In this document: positions 2,032-54,368 of the stretch, piece after piece
Layout: each line of letters starts with the position of its first letter
Position numbering within the stretch: position 1 is the first letter of the stretch
DNA from: an uncultured Bacilli bacterium
Lineage (GTDB): Bacteria; Bacillota_I; Bacilli_A; RF39; UBA660
Length of the DNA: 54,368 bases
Direction: 5' to 3'
Assembly: GCA_934155005.1 (NCBI GenBank)
Contig: CAKPGR010000004.1
Location: forward strand, 1 to 54,368
Position numbers and translations under genes: made by a program
The notes under the pieces: generated by a model
Databases searched by the model: none
What the model was told of the DNA's origin: nothing
The model's input: only the letters and a program-made list of their open reading frames with translations

Positions 2032-2051
2032 AATCCCTATTATTAGGGATT
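2032..2051. terminator. bidirectional hairpin terminator shared by convergent genes
   Basis: aatcccta (2032-2039) pairs with tagggatt (2044-2051). It is flanked by an A-run on the left and a T-run on the right, and it overlaps the stop codon at 2050. Confidence 0.5.
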
Positions 2052-2865
2052 ATTTTATTATTGATTTTGAGATTGTTATTACTGGTCGAACACCACGGTT
2101 AATCTCACTAACAGAATTACTGATTAAGTTACCGCCTCCACTAATAACCCATGCAAGAGAGGAACTACCTGTATAGATATTACTTGTCCAATATCCCCAT
2201 GTAACTTGATCTGCATTATTAAAGCATCCATAATCTTTACAGTCACTTCTTGTTCTATCATATAGCCATCCATAATTACTTCTTTTGCTTGTATCACTCC
2301 CATTATTACTTCCAAAATAGAAGATTGTTCTTGCATCCCAGTTTGTATTTTTTGATATCTTTGCTACTTCATTTGCTGTGATTAATCTAGCTCCCACTAC
2401 CCAGTCTTTTGTATCATTAGATAACGTTCTTGCCACTTCATTCATTTCACTGTTATTTCCACTTGAATTATAAGCAACAACAGATGTTGTATTATGATCT
2501 AGTATTAGATTAACAGATGTTGATCCTTCTTCATCATTAAATGTATACCATTTCATACATCCATTTTTTGTTCCTGTTGTTGATACAGCAGAACTTGACG
2601 TGCATTTTTCTCCTGTTGTTGGATTATAGTATATAGCAGTTCCATTTTCATATTTCTTTGTATAATTATTTATTTTGTTATATAAATCATCTAAGGCATT
2701 TTGAAGTGTTGTATTACTTCCTAAGTTAGAGCCTGTTGGAGCACTCACTAATATTCCATTTGCATAAAATTTTGTTCCTGCATACACTCCTACACTTCCA
2801 AATACTATTCCACTTATTATTATTCCAAATATGTTTTTCTTAATTAAATTTAAAAATTTTTTCAT
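2050..2865 (-). CDS. secreted or membrane-anchored C-type-lectin/DUF1566-like protein, paralogue of the DGR target at 53805
   Basis: N-terminal signal anchor. The C-terminus ...GYWTSN...SLAWVISGGGNLISNSVSEINRGVRPVITISKSIIK is homologous along its length to the ORF at 53805 (GCMKWYTFNDEEG, ARLITANEVAKIS, RSNYGWLYDRT). Confidence 0.7.
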   Translation of the reverse strand: MKKFLNLIKKNIFGIIISGIVFGSVGVYAGTKFYANGILVSAPTGSNLGSNTTLQNALDDLYNKINNYTKKYENGTAIYYNPTTGEKCTSSSAVSTTGTKNGCMKWYTFNDEEGSTSVNLILDHNTTSVVAYNSSGNNSEMNEVARTLSNDTKDWVVGARLITANEVAKISKNTNWDARTIFYFGSNNGSDTSKRSNYGWLYDRTRSDCKDYGCFNNADQVTWGYWTSNIYTGSSSLAWVISGGGNLISNSVSEINRGVRPVITISKSIIK

Positions 2866-10370: not shown

Positions 10371-11090
10371 CTATTTTTTTGTTTCATTATACAATTTTTT
10401 TACTTCCTTAGGATTTAAAATCCTATATTCACCTGATTTAACATTTTGTAAATCTAAAAAAGCATACTTTTCTCTTTTTAATTTTAAAACATTGTATCCT
10501 ATGGCTTCAAACATTTTTTTTACTTGATGATTTCTTCCTTCATGAATAGTAAGTTCAACTATGGAAGTATCACTTTTTTTATCGTATCTTTTAATTCTAG
10601 CTTTTGCTTTACTAGTTTTTTTGCCATCAATAAATACTCCATTTGATAATCTTAAAAGTTCTTTTTTTCCAATCAATCCTTTTATTTTAGCAACATAAAC
10701 TTTTTCAATATTATTTTTAGGATGCATTAATAAATTAGCAAGTTCCCCATCATTTGTTAAAATAAGAATACCTGTTGTATCATAATCAAGTCTTCCTACT
10801 GGATAAATACGTTTTGTTGTATTAATTAAATCAACAACGGTTTTTCTACCTTTGTCATCATTTGTAGATGTAATAACTCCTCTTGGTTTATTTAAAAGAT
10901 AATATACTTTATTTTCATTATCATTATTCAATACCAAACCATCTATTTCAACAAAATCATTATTATCAACTTTTAATCCTAAAATGGCTGTCTTACCATT
11001 TACTTTTACTCTACCTAATTTTATTAATTCTTCTGCCTTTCTTCTAGATGTGTATCCATTATCAGCTATAAATTTTTGTAAACGTATCAT
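10371..11090 (-). CDS. rluB: 23S rRNA pseudouridine synthase, RsuA/RluB family
   Basis: S4 domain (RLQKFIADNGYTSRRKAEELI) and catalytic motif GRLDYDTTGILILTNDG. The start is at ATG 11090, behind AGGTGA. Confidence 0.8.
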   Translation of the reverse strand: MIRLQKFIADNGYTSRRKAEELIKLGRVKVNGKTAILGLKVDNNDFVEIDGLVLNNDNENKVYYLLNKPRGVITSTNDDKGRKTVVDLINTTKRIYPVGRLDYDTTGILILTNDGELANLLMHPKNNIEKVYVAKIKGLIGKKELLRLSNGVFIDGKKTSKAKARIKRYDKKSDTSIVELTIHEGRNHQVKKMFEAIGYNVLKLKREKYAFLDLQNVKSGEYRILNPKEVKKLYNETKK

Positions 11091-11137
11091 AAAATCACCT
11101 AGATACATTATACTTTAATTTTTGTATTTAAACAAGA

Positions 11138-52854: not shown

Positions 52855-53163
52855 TTATAACTTTATTTGAATATCAACACCACTTGGAATTTCAAGATGA
52901 GTTAATGACTCAACTGTTTCCTTACTTGGGTTATTGATAACAATAAGTCTTTTGTGTGTTCTTTTTTCGAATTGTTCTCTCGAATCTTTATATTTATGAA
53001 CAGCTCTAAGAATAGTGATTTTTTCTATTTCAGTTGGTAGTGGTATTGGTCCACTTACTTCTCCACCAGTTCTTTTAACTGTTTCAACTATTTTAGCACA
53101 TGCTTTATCCAAACTTTTATGTTCAAATGCTTTTAATTTAATGCTTATCTTAGTTTTAGACAT
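52855..53163 (-). CDS. rpsJ: 30S ribosomal protein S10
   Basis: [11 protein letters not shown] and GPIPLPT, first gene of the S10 operon. Confidence 0.95.
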
Positions 53164-53294
53164 ATTGTATCCTCCTTTCGCCTATATCCAGTATAGACTT
53201 GCTCCGTGTAAAAACCCGATTTACTTTTTAAATTATTTACAACTTAACCTGGCGTATCGGCAACCTTACACATCCTAGCTGTCACACATAATCA

Positions 53295-53323
53295 ATTATA
53301 CATAAGAATTATATGAAAATCAA
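53295..53323 (-). promoter_or_regulatory. sigma-A type promoter of the S10 operon
   Basis: On the minus strand, TTGATT (53318-53323), a 17-nt spacer, then TATAAT (53295-53300). This leaves a leader of about 125 nt before the rpsJ ATG. Confidence 0.55.
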
Positions 53324-53381: not shown

Positions 53382-53452
53382 TAAAAAAAAATCACAGTTT
53401 CTAGTTTTAATTCTTTTCGTCTTAAACTACTAGCAATTAAAACATCTGTGAT
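53382..53452 (-). terminator. long interrupted hairpin plus U9: terminator of the target-gene/TR transcription unit
   Basis: ATCACAG (53446-53452 on the minus strand) pairs with CTGTGAT (53391-53397). The inner stem is GTTTTAATT/AATTAAAAC (53435-53443 / 53404-53412). T9 follows on the minus strand (A-run 53382-53390). Confidence 0.6.
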
Positions 53453-53556
53453 ATAGTTTTTATTAAAAGTTTATACCTTTTAAAAGGAATAATACTTATT
53501 TCCCAATTCTTCTATTTACCTACCTTAGTAAAATAAATCGCAGTTATAAAAGGAAT

Positions 53557-53643
53557 CTGGGCGAACACCGTTGTTAGTATTGCTAACAGTGTTGTTGTTC
53601 AAGTTACCGTTCCTATTCACATTCCACGCATTAGTAGAGCCGC
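53557..53643 (-). repeat. DGR template repeat (TR), non-coding, Asn-codon-rich, with an IMH*-like 3' end
   Basis: An 87-nt copy of the target gene's 3' coding end. Conceptual reading gives STNAWNVNRNGNLNNNTVSNTNNGVRP (12 AAC/AAT codons). It differs from the VR only at TR adenines in the core. Confidence 0.8.
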
Positions 53644-53804
53644 AGGAAAAAAATAAACCTTTCAGTATTATCCCTATATATAATCTTCAATATTTACTTT
53701 ACAACCAATATCTACTATTTTATTCTTATTTATATTATTTCTTATAAGTTTATTTATTTTAGCTTTATTATTTTCTTTTTTACAGTTTGCTTACTACATT
53801 CCCA

Positions 53805-54368
53805 TTAAGAGATTATAGATTTTGAGACAGATATAACTGGGCGCACGCCGTGGCTAGCTGGATCGCTAACAGGGCCGTTGTACAAGACACCGAGCCTATA
53901 CACAAGCCACGCACTAGCAGAGTCGCTTATGTTCGCATTACTTGTCCAGTATCCCCTTGTGTCTTGATCTGCATTATTTAAACATCCAAGATTTTTACAA
54001 TAATCACTTGTTCTATCATATAACCATCCATAGTTACTTCTTTTACTATCATCACTTTGATTATTACTTCCTAAATAAAACCAATCTTGTCCTAAATTAA
54101 AATTTGTATTACCAGATATCTTAGCTACTTCATTTGCAGTAATTAATCTAGCAGTATTTTTCCAGTCTTTTGTATCACTTTCTAAAGCTGGAGCTACTTC
54201 TTTCATCTCACTATTGTTTCCACTTGAATTCCAAGCTACTTTTGCTGTTGTATTATGGTCTAATATTAAATTTACTGAATTATTTCCTTCTTCATCATTG
54301 AATGTATACCATTTCATACATCCGCTCTTTGTTCCTGTTAAACTCACTGATTCACTTTCTGTGCATTT
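53805..54368 (-). CDS. DGR target: secreted C-type-lectin/DUF1566-like variable protein (3' part; the gene runs off the right edge)
   Basis: Homologous to the ORF at 2050-2865 from GCMKWYTFNDEEG onward, with the frame open to the window end. The C-terminus is ...SASAWLVYRLGVLYNGPVSDPASHGVRPVISVSKSIIS. Confidence 0.8.
   Translation of the reverse strand, partial: KCTESESVSLTGTKSGCMKWYTFNDEEGNNSVNLILDHNTTAKVAWNSSGNNSEMKEVAPALESDTKDWKNTARLITANEVAKISGNTNFNLGQDWFYLGSNNQSDDSKRSNYGWLYDRTSDYCKNLGCLNNADQDTRGYWTSNANISDSASAWLVYRLGVLYNGPVSDPASHGVRPVISVSKSIIS
53837..53926 (-). repeat. DGR variable repeat (VR) with a GC-rich IMH-like 3' end
   Basis: 90 nt inside the CDS, aligned to the TR with 17 substitutions, all at TR adenines, plus one 3-nt insertion. 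The 3' end is GGCGTGCGCCCAG against TR GGTGTTCGCCCAG. Confidence 0.8.

What the first reader, a model, noticed from the sequence alone, without database searches (positions are those of the whole stretch)
53382..53836. Template repeat without an adjacent reverse transcriptase or Avd, wedged against the S10 ribosomal operon
In described DGRs the TR sits next to the RT gene, usually with avd (target-avd-TR-RT). Here the order on the minus strand is: target gene stop (53805), 161 nt of AT-rich non-coding DNA, TR (53643-53557), about 100 nt, a strong terminator (53452-53382), and then the S10 operon promoter. No ORF of 60 aa or more in the entire window has RT motifs such as YxDD or looks like a four-helix Avd. 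The RT must therefore lie upstream of the target beyond 54368 in an unusual order, or act in trans from elsewhere. The TR transcript would also lack the usual TR-RT spacer context used for priming in the Bordetella phage system. The clean adenine-only pattern suggests that the pair has nevertheless been active.
Basis: partly seen in the sequence, partly recalled or inferred. Interest (0 to 1): 0.7.

Follow-up and report, generated by a model that had tools for sequence, protein, structure and literature searches.

The report
Mutagenic retroelement missing its reverse transcriptase
Next to the S10 ribosomal operon of an uncultured gut bacterium sits the RNA half of a diversity-generating retroelement (variable pilin gene, template repeat, scaffold RNA, terminator) whose enzyme genes are missing, most likely deleted, so it is probably a recent relic rather than a new way of working.

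Summary
On the minus strand an 87-nt template repeat (TR, 53643-53557) matches the 3' end of a type IV pilin-like gene (VR, 53926-53837). Of 20 substitutions, 17 lie at TR adenines (P=1.6e-6). It is not fully clean: there are 3 non-adenine mismatches at the repeat edges and a 3-nt insertion in VR. No RT, Avd or MutS-like gene occurs in the 54-kb window, in 10 kb beyond its right edge, or in about 140 kb from samples carrying this strain.

One claim is wrong. The TR does not lack spacer context. Directly 3' of it (53555-53404) lies a structured RNA related to Rfam RT-14. In relatives this RNA sits between the TR and a MutS-like/bAvd/RT operon.

A related Bacilli MAG carries the full cassette (pilin target, TR, RT-14 RNA, MSL, bAvd, RT) at the same spot, just upstream of the S10 promoter. 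The window looks like that layout minus about 1.8 kb.

Sister strains carry damaging TR mutations that were never copied into their VRs, and the target lacks the post-VR hairpin seen in relatives. Most likely this is a DGR that lost its enzymes and is now inactive (about 0.55). A trans-acting RT elsewhere remains possible (about 0.35-0.4), because the whole genome could not be searched.

The parts
53805..54368 (-). 3' part of the target gene. The full gene encodes 338 aa and runs off the window. It is a type IV prepilin-like protein with a variable C-terminal domain.
   Evidence: Full gene read in L001 8343-9359. PF07963 N_methyl scores 32.9 bits against a cutoff of 21.2. The N-terminus matches solved type IV pilins at about 1e-6. 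DUF6273 is found in 9 of 25 relatives.
53837..53926 (-). Variable repeat (VR) encoding DSASAWLVYRLGVLYNGPVSDPASHGVRP.
   Evidence: Aligns to the TR with 17 A-to-N mismatches, 3 non-A mismatches and one 3-nt insertion. Across 118 homologs, entropy is 3.06 bits at residues templated by TR Asn/Thr codons and 0.92 bits at other VR residues.
53859..53861 (-). In-frame CCA (Pro) insertion in VR relative to the TR.
   Evidence: The insertion is absent from the VRs of strains L004 and L007.
53644..53804 (-). AT-rich spacer between the target stop codon and the TR. No promoter passed the scan. Strains differ by a 13-nt indel at 53655.
53557..53643 (-). Template repeat (TR). In the VR frame it reads GSTNAWNVNRNGNLNNNTVSNTNNGVRP.
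   Evidence: 28 adenines, 27 of them at codon positions 1 or 2. Conserved in L004 and L007 with no change at any adenine and 2-5 substitutions at non-adenine positions (L007 also has a 1-nt deletion at the 3' end).
53404..53555 (-). RT-14-like scaffold RNA directly 3' of the TR. It has a hairpin with a CUAAGG loop, a UAUUCCUUUU motif with a hairpin, and a long stem with UAGUAG and GAA internal loops.
   Evidence: Rfam RF02921, full model 1-144, 32.2 bits (gathering score 48.1), E 0.0086. The same family hits at the same position in L039 (36.6 bits) and L094 (54.5 bits, above the gathering score). A model built only from RT-linked copies has its top hit here (13.2 bits, E 0.28). MFE folds recover the long stem in all four sequences.
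53383..53452 (-). Intrinsic terminator. An outer stem AUCACAG/CUGUGAU encloses the last RT-14 hairpin and is followed by a U-run.
   Evidence: The sequence from the U-run onward matches the region after the RT-operon terminator in L039.
53295..53323 (-). S10 operon promoter (TTGATT, 17 nt, TATAAT).
   Evidence: Conserved in L039.
53178..53284 (-). S10-Clostridia ribosomal protein leader.
   Evidence: RF03136, 42.7 bits against a gathering score of 35.1.
52855..53163 (-). rpsJ (S10), the first gene of the S10 operon.

Best explanation
This is the nucleic-acid half of an MSL-type diversity-generating retroelement. It consists of a pilin-like target gene with its VR, the cognate TR, an RT-14-class scaffold RNA and a terminator.

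In the ancestor, as in the related MAG L039, a MutS-like/bAvd/RT operon lay between the scaffold RNA and the S10 promoter. The TR RNA was reverse-transcribed with adenine-specific errors, and the cDNA replaced the VR. This diversified the receptor-binding tip of the pilin.

A deletion of about 1.8 kb then removed the three protein genes. It joined the end of the scaffold RNA to the terminator region that follows the RT operon.

Shown: the TR/VR anatomy, the RNA homology, the absence of the enzymes locally, and the complete cassette at the same chromosomal spot in a relative.

Inferred: the deletion itself, and that the locus is now a frozen relic. Under this reading, the VR differences between strains come from earlier retrohoming plus gene conversion among at least 8 paralogous pilin genes.

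Confidence that it is an RT-less remnant of such a cassette is about 0.8. Confidence that it is currently inactive is about 0.55.
For: (1) L039 carries pilin target, TR (16 A-only mismatches), RT-14 RNA, MutS_I protein, bAvd, RVT_1, then the S10 promoter, leader and rpsJ. The window's S10 promoter and leader are 84% identical to L039's. The window's post-terminator sequence matches L039's sequence just after the RT-operon terminator.

(2) No RT, MSL or Avd is found in the window, in L001/L007 upstream, or around the other paralogs of the same samples. That is about 140 kb in total.

(3) L092 shows target, TR, a truncated MutS-like ORF, then the T-box leader and pheS. This suggests the same kind of loss elsewhere, though it rests on weak blastp matches (E 0.08-0.17).

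(4) TR changes were never copied into VR. C16T (Ala to Val at a conserved Ala-Trp) occurs in L004 and L007. Ser to Pro and a 1-nt deletion occur in L007. Their VRs keep the ancestral bases.

(5) The VR carries a codon insertion that a full homing event would erase.

(6) RT-linked pairs are cleaner than RT-less ones: 2 of 36 mismatches are non-A versus 31 of 164 (Fisher P=0.051).

(7) The hairpin ATCGC-GAA-GCGAT that follows the VR in L039 and L094 is absent here.

(8) The C-terminal domain outside the VR is 8-17% divergent between strains while the flanks differ by about 1%. Alleles are mosaics of paralogs, so recombination can account for the VR differences.
Against: Only about 10-15% of a genome of presumed 1-1.5 Mb was visible, so an RT elsewhere is not excluded.

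The window strain's own TR is in the ancestral state. All 28 adenines are intact in three strains, while 5 substitution events hit non-adenine positions.

Except for the indel, the window's interior TR/VR mismatches are all at adenines.

VRs of three near-identical strains differ at 10-18 of 28 adenine sites but at only 2-6 of 59 other sites. Recent retrohoming would also produce this pattern.

The TR RNA has its own terminator in RT-bearing relatives too, so the RT always acts on a separate transcript, and physical separation is mechanistically harmless.

The similarity at the proposed deletion junction lies in AT-rich sequence and is statistically weak (E 0.04).
Confidence: 0.55

Rival explanations
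1. Split but working DGR. The TR/scaffold RNA gene stays next to its main target, while the MSL/bAvd/RT operon is encoded elsewhere in the genome, possibly with its own TR. That operon acts in trans on this RNA and on the VRs of several dispersed pilin paralogs.
For: The TR, scaffold RNA and terminator form a complete transcription unit, separate from the enzyme operon even in RT-bearing relatives (L039, L052, L093, L094).

All TR adenines are conserved in three strains.

Strain VRs differ almost only at adenine sites.

Several remote paralogs in the same samples have A-biased VR matches to this TR. Examples are L097 12273-12359 (12 A-site and 3 non-A mismatches by my reading of the alignment) and P0005 and P0006 (16 A-site plus 6-7 non-A).

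Other TRs of this family (L090, L091) sit between targets with no RT on the contig.

Trans action of avd-TR-brt from a plasmid, and targets megabases away, are documented (PMC5758913).
Against: No RT was found in any sequence reachable for this genome.

None of the 120 best homologs of the L039 RT lies on a contig of a length known for this species.

TR mutations were not propagated to VRs, and the TR is decaying in L007.

RT-less pairs carry more non-A mismatches.

The target hairpin is missing.

The L090 and L091 contigs are short, so they do not show that an RT is absent.
Confidence: 0.37
2. The short repeat is a silent pilin cassette used for RecA-type gene conversion, as with Neisseria pilS/pilE. 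It would not be a retroelement template.
For: The target is a type IV pilin-like gene with many paralogs and clear mosaic recombination.
Against: The copy is built of AAY codons exactly at the hypervariable residues, and mismatches are adenine-specific. It is followed by an RNA of a family otherwise found next to DGR RT operons. It covers only 87 nt and is non-coding.
Confidence: 0.04
3. Chance similarity or an assembly artefact.
For: The region is AT-rich, and contigs break inside the target gene in several assemblies.
Against: The same TR/VR architecture is found in five independent assemblies. Adenine bias has P=1.6e-6. The contig breaks are explained by the identical N-terminal halves of the paralogs.
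Confidence: 0.01

Closest known systems
MSL-type DGR cassettes (Architecture D of Wu et al. 2018, PMC5758913), seen here in L039, L052, L093 and L094
   Same: The target has a C-terminal VR. The TR lies just downstream, is rich in AAY codons and shows adenine-specific mismatches. An RT-14-class RNA and a terminator follow the TR. L039 has the same chromosomal neighbourhood, with the pilin upstream of the S10 operon.
   Different: The MutS-like, bAvd and RT genes are absent. VR carries a codon insertion. The post-VR hairpin seen in L039 and L094 was not found.
DGRs with remote targets (Treponema denticola TvpA family; Trichodesmium erythraeum with 12 targets, PMC4143802; cyanobacterial remote variable proteins, PMC7517822)
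   Same: A family of dispersed paralogous targets whose VRs resemble a single TR. The TR is made as a discrete non-coding RNA.
   Different: In those systems the TR stays beside the RT and only the targets are remote. Here the TR itself sits with a target and no RT is nearby.
Rfam RT-14 (RF02921) and RT-10, the TR-RT spacer RNA of phage BPP-1 (Weinberg et al. 2017, PMC5737381)
   Same: A structured RNA immediately 3' of a TR, with the same order of helices and conserved loops. The L094 copy passes the gathering score.
   Different: The window copy scores 32.2 bits, below the gathering score of 48.1. Its last helix is nested inside a terminator stem, and no RT gene follows it.
Neisseria pilE/pilS antigenic variation
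   Same: A type IV pilin with a hypervariable C-terminus, many partial or paralogous copies, and mosaic alleles arising by recombination.
   Different: The donor here is an adenine-rich non-coding template with retroelement RNA features. It is not a silent pilin cassette.

Membership tests
Diversity-generating retroelement (DGR) | An imperfect TR/VR repeat whose mismatches fall overwhelmingly at TR adenines | tested here: met
   17 of 20 substitutions lie at the 28 adenines of the 87-nt TR, P=1.6e-6. The exceptions are at the repeat edges, plus a 3-nt insertion.
Diversity-generating retroelement (DGR) | VR at the 3' end of a protein-coding target, with TR adenines at codon positions 1 and 2 (AAY codons) | tested here: met
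   The VR ends 30 nt before the stop codon. 27 of 28 adenines are at codon positions 1 or 2. Family variability sits exactly on those codons.
Diversity-generating retroelement (DGR) | A DGR-clade reverse transcriptase encoded next to the TR. Survey pipelines require a repeat within 1 kb of the RT (PMC8144416). | tested here: not met
   An HMM built from 122 DGR RTs and tblastn find nothing in the 54-kb window or in 10.4 kb beyond the target. Positive controls L039, L052, L093 and L094 score 1e-100 to 1e-180.
Diversity-generating retroelement (DGR) | An accessory gene (avd, or MSL in this clade) | tested here: not met
   blastp with the MSL and Avd proteins of L039 and L052 gives no hit in the window or in loci of the same genome.
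Diversity-generating retroelement (DGR) | A structured spacer RNA 3' of the TR | tested here: inconclusive
   There is a full-length RT-14 match, but it is below the gathering score (32.2 vs 48.1 bits). It has the same position and motifs as in L039 (36.6 bits) and L094 (54.5 bits). An independent model gives only 13.2 bits.
Diversity-generating retroelement (DGR) | Target-site elements: a GC-rich IMH-like end and a hairpin/cruciform downstream of the VR (PMC3240598) | tested here: inconclusive
   TR and VR share a GC-rich end, CGCCCAG, with two synonymous differences just upstream. No stable hairpin follows the VR (-1.2 kcal/mol, z +1.07), whereas L039 and L094 have ATCGC-GAA-GCGAT. The requirement is known only for BPP-1-like systems.
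Diversity-generating retroelement (DGR) | Ongoing adenine-specific diversification within populations | not testable with these tools
   No reads were available. Three assemblies (L001-L003) carry an identical VR. Divergent strains differ mainly at adenine sites, but TR mutations were not transferred to their VRs.
Rfam RF02921 (RT-14 RNA) | Score at or above the curated gathering threshold | tested here: not met
   32.2 bits against 48.1. This is treated as a divergent relative, not a certified member.
Type IV pilin / pseudopilin | N-terminal prepilin cleavage and methylation motif followed by a hydrophobic helix | tested here: met
   PF07963 scores 32.9 bits against a cutoff of 21.2. The profile matches PilE1, MshA and PilA in the PDB. 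The AF2 model has a long N-terminal helix, residues 8-61.
C-type-lectin-fold DGR variable domain | A CLec fold in the VR-bearing domain | tested here: inconclusive
   The AF2 model has pLDDT 76 but is poor in residues 250-290. Foldseek against the PDB gives no match with E below 0.06. Only DUF6273 is found, in relatives.

The most novel reading that the evidence does not exclude
In these small-genome gut Bacilli, DGRs may be modular. Autonomous TR/scaffold RNA genes would sit beside individual pilin or adhesin targets, and a single MSL/bAvd/RT operon elsewhere would service them in trans. RT-anchored survey pipelines require a repeat within 1 kb of the RT, so they would systematically miss such TR modules and the many dispersed targets they feed.
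Probability: 0.33. Interest if true: 0.65.

Novelty: new variant of a known kind. Interest (0 to 1): 0.45.

Why it matters
If it is a relic, it is a dated snapshot of how a DGR dies. The enzyme operon goes first. The template RNA and the hypervariable target persist, and the target family continues to vary by recombination among paralogs.

It also gives the orphan Rfam motif RT-14 a concrete context: the RNA between the TR and the MSL/bAvd/RT operons of gut Bacilli.

It further reveals a very large family (more than 7,000 homologs) of DGR-shaped type IV pilin-like proteins whose variable residues map exactly onto the Asn codons of this TR.

If an RT instead acts in trans, it would show that the TR need not be linked to the RT. 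RT-anchored surveys would then undercount DGR templates and targets.

Tried and rejected
- A degenerate TR/VR pattern scanned against GTDB genomes gave 0 hits.
- A scan with the target-family alignment brought 79 loci from related MAGs, but not this species.
- I searched for the species' RT among the 120 best homologs of the L039 RT, using the lengths of contigs known for this species. None matched.
- The listing of cluster members returned no sample accessions, so RTs could not be tied to the source samples.
- I looked around 8 paralogous targets for an RT or a second TR and found none.
- The paralog in the window at 2050-2865 was considered as a second VR and rejected, because its mismatches to the TR are not adenine-specific.
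- The RT-14 motif was not found 3' of the TRs in L052, L090, L091 or L092.
- My own covariance model, built from three RT-linked copies, detects the window element only weakly and only with filters off.
- MAFFT could not align the last helix in register, so no formal covariation count was made.
- The structure prediction and PDB fold search did not identify the C-terminal fold.
- Viral contigs hold no close relative of the L039 RT and no copy of this TR family.
- The TANB77 pilin paper concerns Tad-type pilins and is not relevant.

Full report
**Observation**

On the minus strand an 87-nt repeat (53643-53557) matches the end of the ORF that stops at 53805 (VR 53926-53837). There are 20 substitutions. 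Seventeen lie at the TR's 28 adenines (binomial P=1.6e-6), and 27 of the 28 adenines occupy codon positions 1 or 2. In the VR frame the TR reads GSTNAWNVNRNGNLNNNTVSNTNNGVRP.

The pattern is not perfectly clean. There is one G/A mismatch at TR position 4. Two mismatches at positions 77 and 80 are synonymous third positions (GGY, GTK) after the last adenine. VR also has an in-frame CCA insertion at 53859-53861.

- A 161-nt AT-rich spacer.
- A long hairpin at 53452-53391 followed by a U-run.
- An S10 promoter at 53323-53295.
- The S10-Clostridia leader at 53284-53178, above its gathering score.

**The target**

The gene runs off the window. The same locus on a 210,930-bp ENA scaffold (L001; 1 mismatch in 1,569 nt) gives the full 338-aa protein. 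It has a prepilin N-terminal methylation motif, and its N-terminus matches solved type IV pilins. Relatives carry DUF6273.

It belongs to a very large family, with more than 7,200 homologs, mostly from gut metagenomes. Across 118 homologs, entropy is 3.06 bits at residues templated by the TR's Asn/Thr codons. It is 0.92 bits at the other VR residues and 0.89 bits in the rest of the protein. The family's variability therefore has the shape of this TR.

The C-terminal fold could not be identified.

**No enzymes nearby**

A profile built from 122 DGR RTs scores 1e-100 to 1e-180 on four control cassettes. It finds nothing in any of the following:
- the window;
- the 8.8-10.4 kb beyond its right edge (L001, L007);
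- the neighbourhoods of other paralogs from the same samples (L009, L095, L096, L097).

Together these cover about 140 kb. MutS-like and Avd queries are also negative. The RT is therefore not "just beyond 54368".

**The spacer RNA is present**

The 152 nt directly 3' of the TR (53555-53404) match Rfam RT-14 over the whole model. The score is 32.2 bits with E 0.0086-0.038, below the gathering score of 48.1. RT-1 to RT-19 are motifs found next to RT genes, and RT-10 is the BPP-1 TR-RT spacer (PMC5737381).

The same family hits at the same position, between the TR and the enzyme operon, in bona fide cassettes. L039 scores 36.6 bits and L094 scores 54.5 bits, above the gathering score. The four sequences share three features:
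- a hairpin with a (U)CAAGG or CUAAGG loop;
- a UAAUUCCUUUU motif with a hairpin;
- a 9-12-bp stem with UAGUAG and GAA internal loops, whose arms differ in sequence but stay paired.

Each is followed by an intrinsic terminator. A model built only from the three RT-linked copies has its best hit in the region exactly here, but the hit is weak (13.2 bits, E 0.28).

In this clade the TR RNA is thus its own transcription unit, separate from the enzyme operon.

**Relatives**

In the MAG L039 (uncultured Bacilli; S10 protein 87% identical) the order is:
- pilin-like target;
- TR, with 16 adenine-only mismatches;
- RT-14 RNA;
- a MutS_I protein;
- bAvd;
- RVT_1;
- the S10 promoter, leader and rpsJ.

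The window's S10 promoter and leader are 84% identical to L039's. The window's sequence from the terminator U-run onward is TTTTTTTTATTTTGTAAAAAATGA. It matches L039's sequence just after the RT-operon terminator, TTTTTTTGATTTTATAAAAATGA. The window therefore looks like L039 minus the roughly 1.8-kb enzyme operon.

A third relative, L056, has a non-DGR pilin directly upstream of S10, so pilin-S10 synteny is ancestral.

L052 carries a TR 80% similar to the window's over 45 nt, together with MSL, Avd and RT.

A scan for this TR family in metagenome contigs found two kinds of RT-less arrangement:
- L090 and L091 have the TR between two targets and no RT on short contigs.
- L092 has target, TR, a truncated MutS-like ORF, then the T-box leader and pheS. 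This looks like a cassette caught in decay.

**Active or fossil?**

Three strains share the RT-less layout, and their flanks are about 99% identical. Their VRs differ at 10-18 of 28 adenine sites but at only 2-6 of 59 other sites. Their TRs differ at 0 of 28 adenine sites. That is a DGR footprint. Several observations argue against recent homing from this TR.

- TR mutations in L004 and L007 are absent from their VRs. These include C16T, which changes the conserved Ala before the invariant Trp to Val. L007 additionally has a Ser-to-Pro change and a 1-nt deletion in the GC-rich 3' end.
- The window VR has a codon insertion.
- RT-less pairs carry more non-adenine mismatches than RT-linked ones (31 of 164 versus 2 of 36, P=0.051).
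- The post-VR hairpin of L039 and L094 is missing (compare PMC3240598).
- The C-terminal domain outside the VR is 8-17% divergent between strains.
- Alleles are mosaics of paralogs, and one scaffold switches to another paralog at residue 227. Gene conversion among at least 8 paralogs can therefore move VRs between loci.

Those paralogs lie at tuf, pnp, divIC and other loci. Their VRs are also adenine-biased relative to this TR.

**Verdict**

This is the RNA half of an MSL-type DGR whose enzyme operon has most likely been deleted.
- It is probably inactive (0.55).
- A trans-acting RT elsewhere (about 0.37) is not excluded. Only some 10-15% of the genome could be read, trans action is mechanistically plausible (PMC5758913), and surveys that require a repeat within 1 kb of the RT (PMC8144416) would never have seen such a case.

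Noticed in passing
window 2050-2865 (-): A 271-aa paralog with a membrane-anchor N-terminus instead of a prepilin signal, but the same C-terminal domain. Its VR-like stretch (2082-2177) resembles the TR, but the mismatches are not adenine-specific (15 of 36 at adenines). A 277-aa homolog in L097 (11558-12391) has a much cleaner match, 83% identical to the TR.
   Followed up: partly
L008/L009 (tuf), L089 (pnp), L097 (divIC region), L096, L006, L095: At least 8 pilin-like paralogs are scattered singly behind housekeeping genes. Their N-terminal 150-227 residues are identical. Contigs break, or switch paralog, inside the gene (L095 equals L001 up to residue 227 and then continues into a different flank). 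This suggests recombination or assembly chimeras between paralogs.
   Followed up: partly
window 53655 (minus strand, just 5' of the TR): Strains L004 and L007 carry 13 extra nt (ATGTATTAGGTTA) that the window lacks. No promoter for the TR RNA passed the consensus scan, so the TR may be co-transcribed with the target gene.
   Followed up: no
L094 334-472; L039 12019-12154: The Rfam orphan motif RT-14 lies between the TR and a MutS-like/bAvd/RT operon. It is followed by its own terminator. This gives the motif a concrete DGR context.
   Followed up: yes
L092 (1,685-bp contig): Target 3' end, TR (18 adenine-site and 2 other mismatches), a 73-codon open frame (about 62 aa from its Met) resembling the N-terminal half of the MutS-like accessory protein, then a T-box leader (107 bits) and pheS. 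This looks like a DGR cassette that has lost avd and RT.
   Followed up: partly
L093 1986-2066 versus window 10371-11108 (-): In L093 the MSL/bAvd/RT cassette lies directly upstream of rluB. The window's rluB has only 30 nt upstream before the next gene, so that site is empty here.
   Followed up: no
L091 5624-5755 (-): A group II intron D1-D4 fragment (50.8 bits) lies among the target genes of an RT-less TR locus.
   Followed up: no
L039 11638-11650; L094 28-40: A conserved hairpin ATCGC-GAA-GCGAT lies a few nt after the VR or stop codon in RT-bearing cassettes. It is a likely target-recognition cruciform and is absent after the window's VR.
   Followed up: partly
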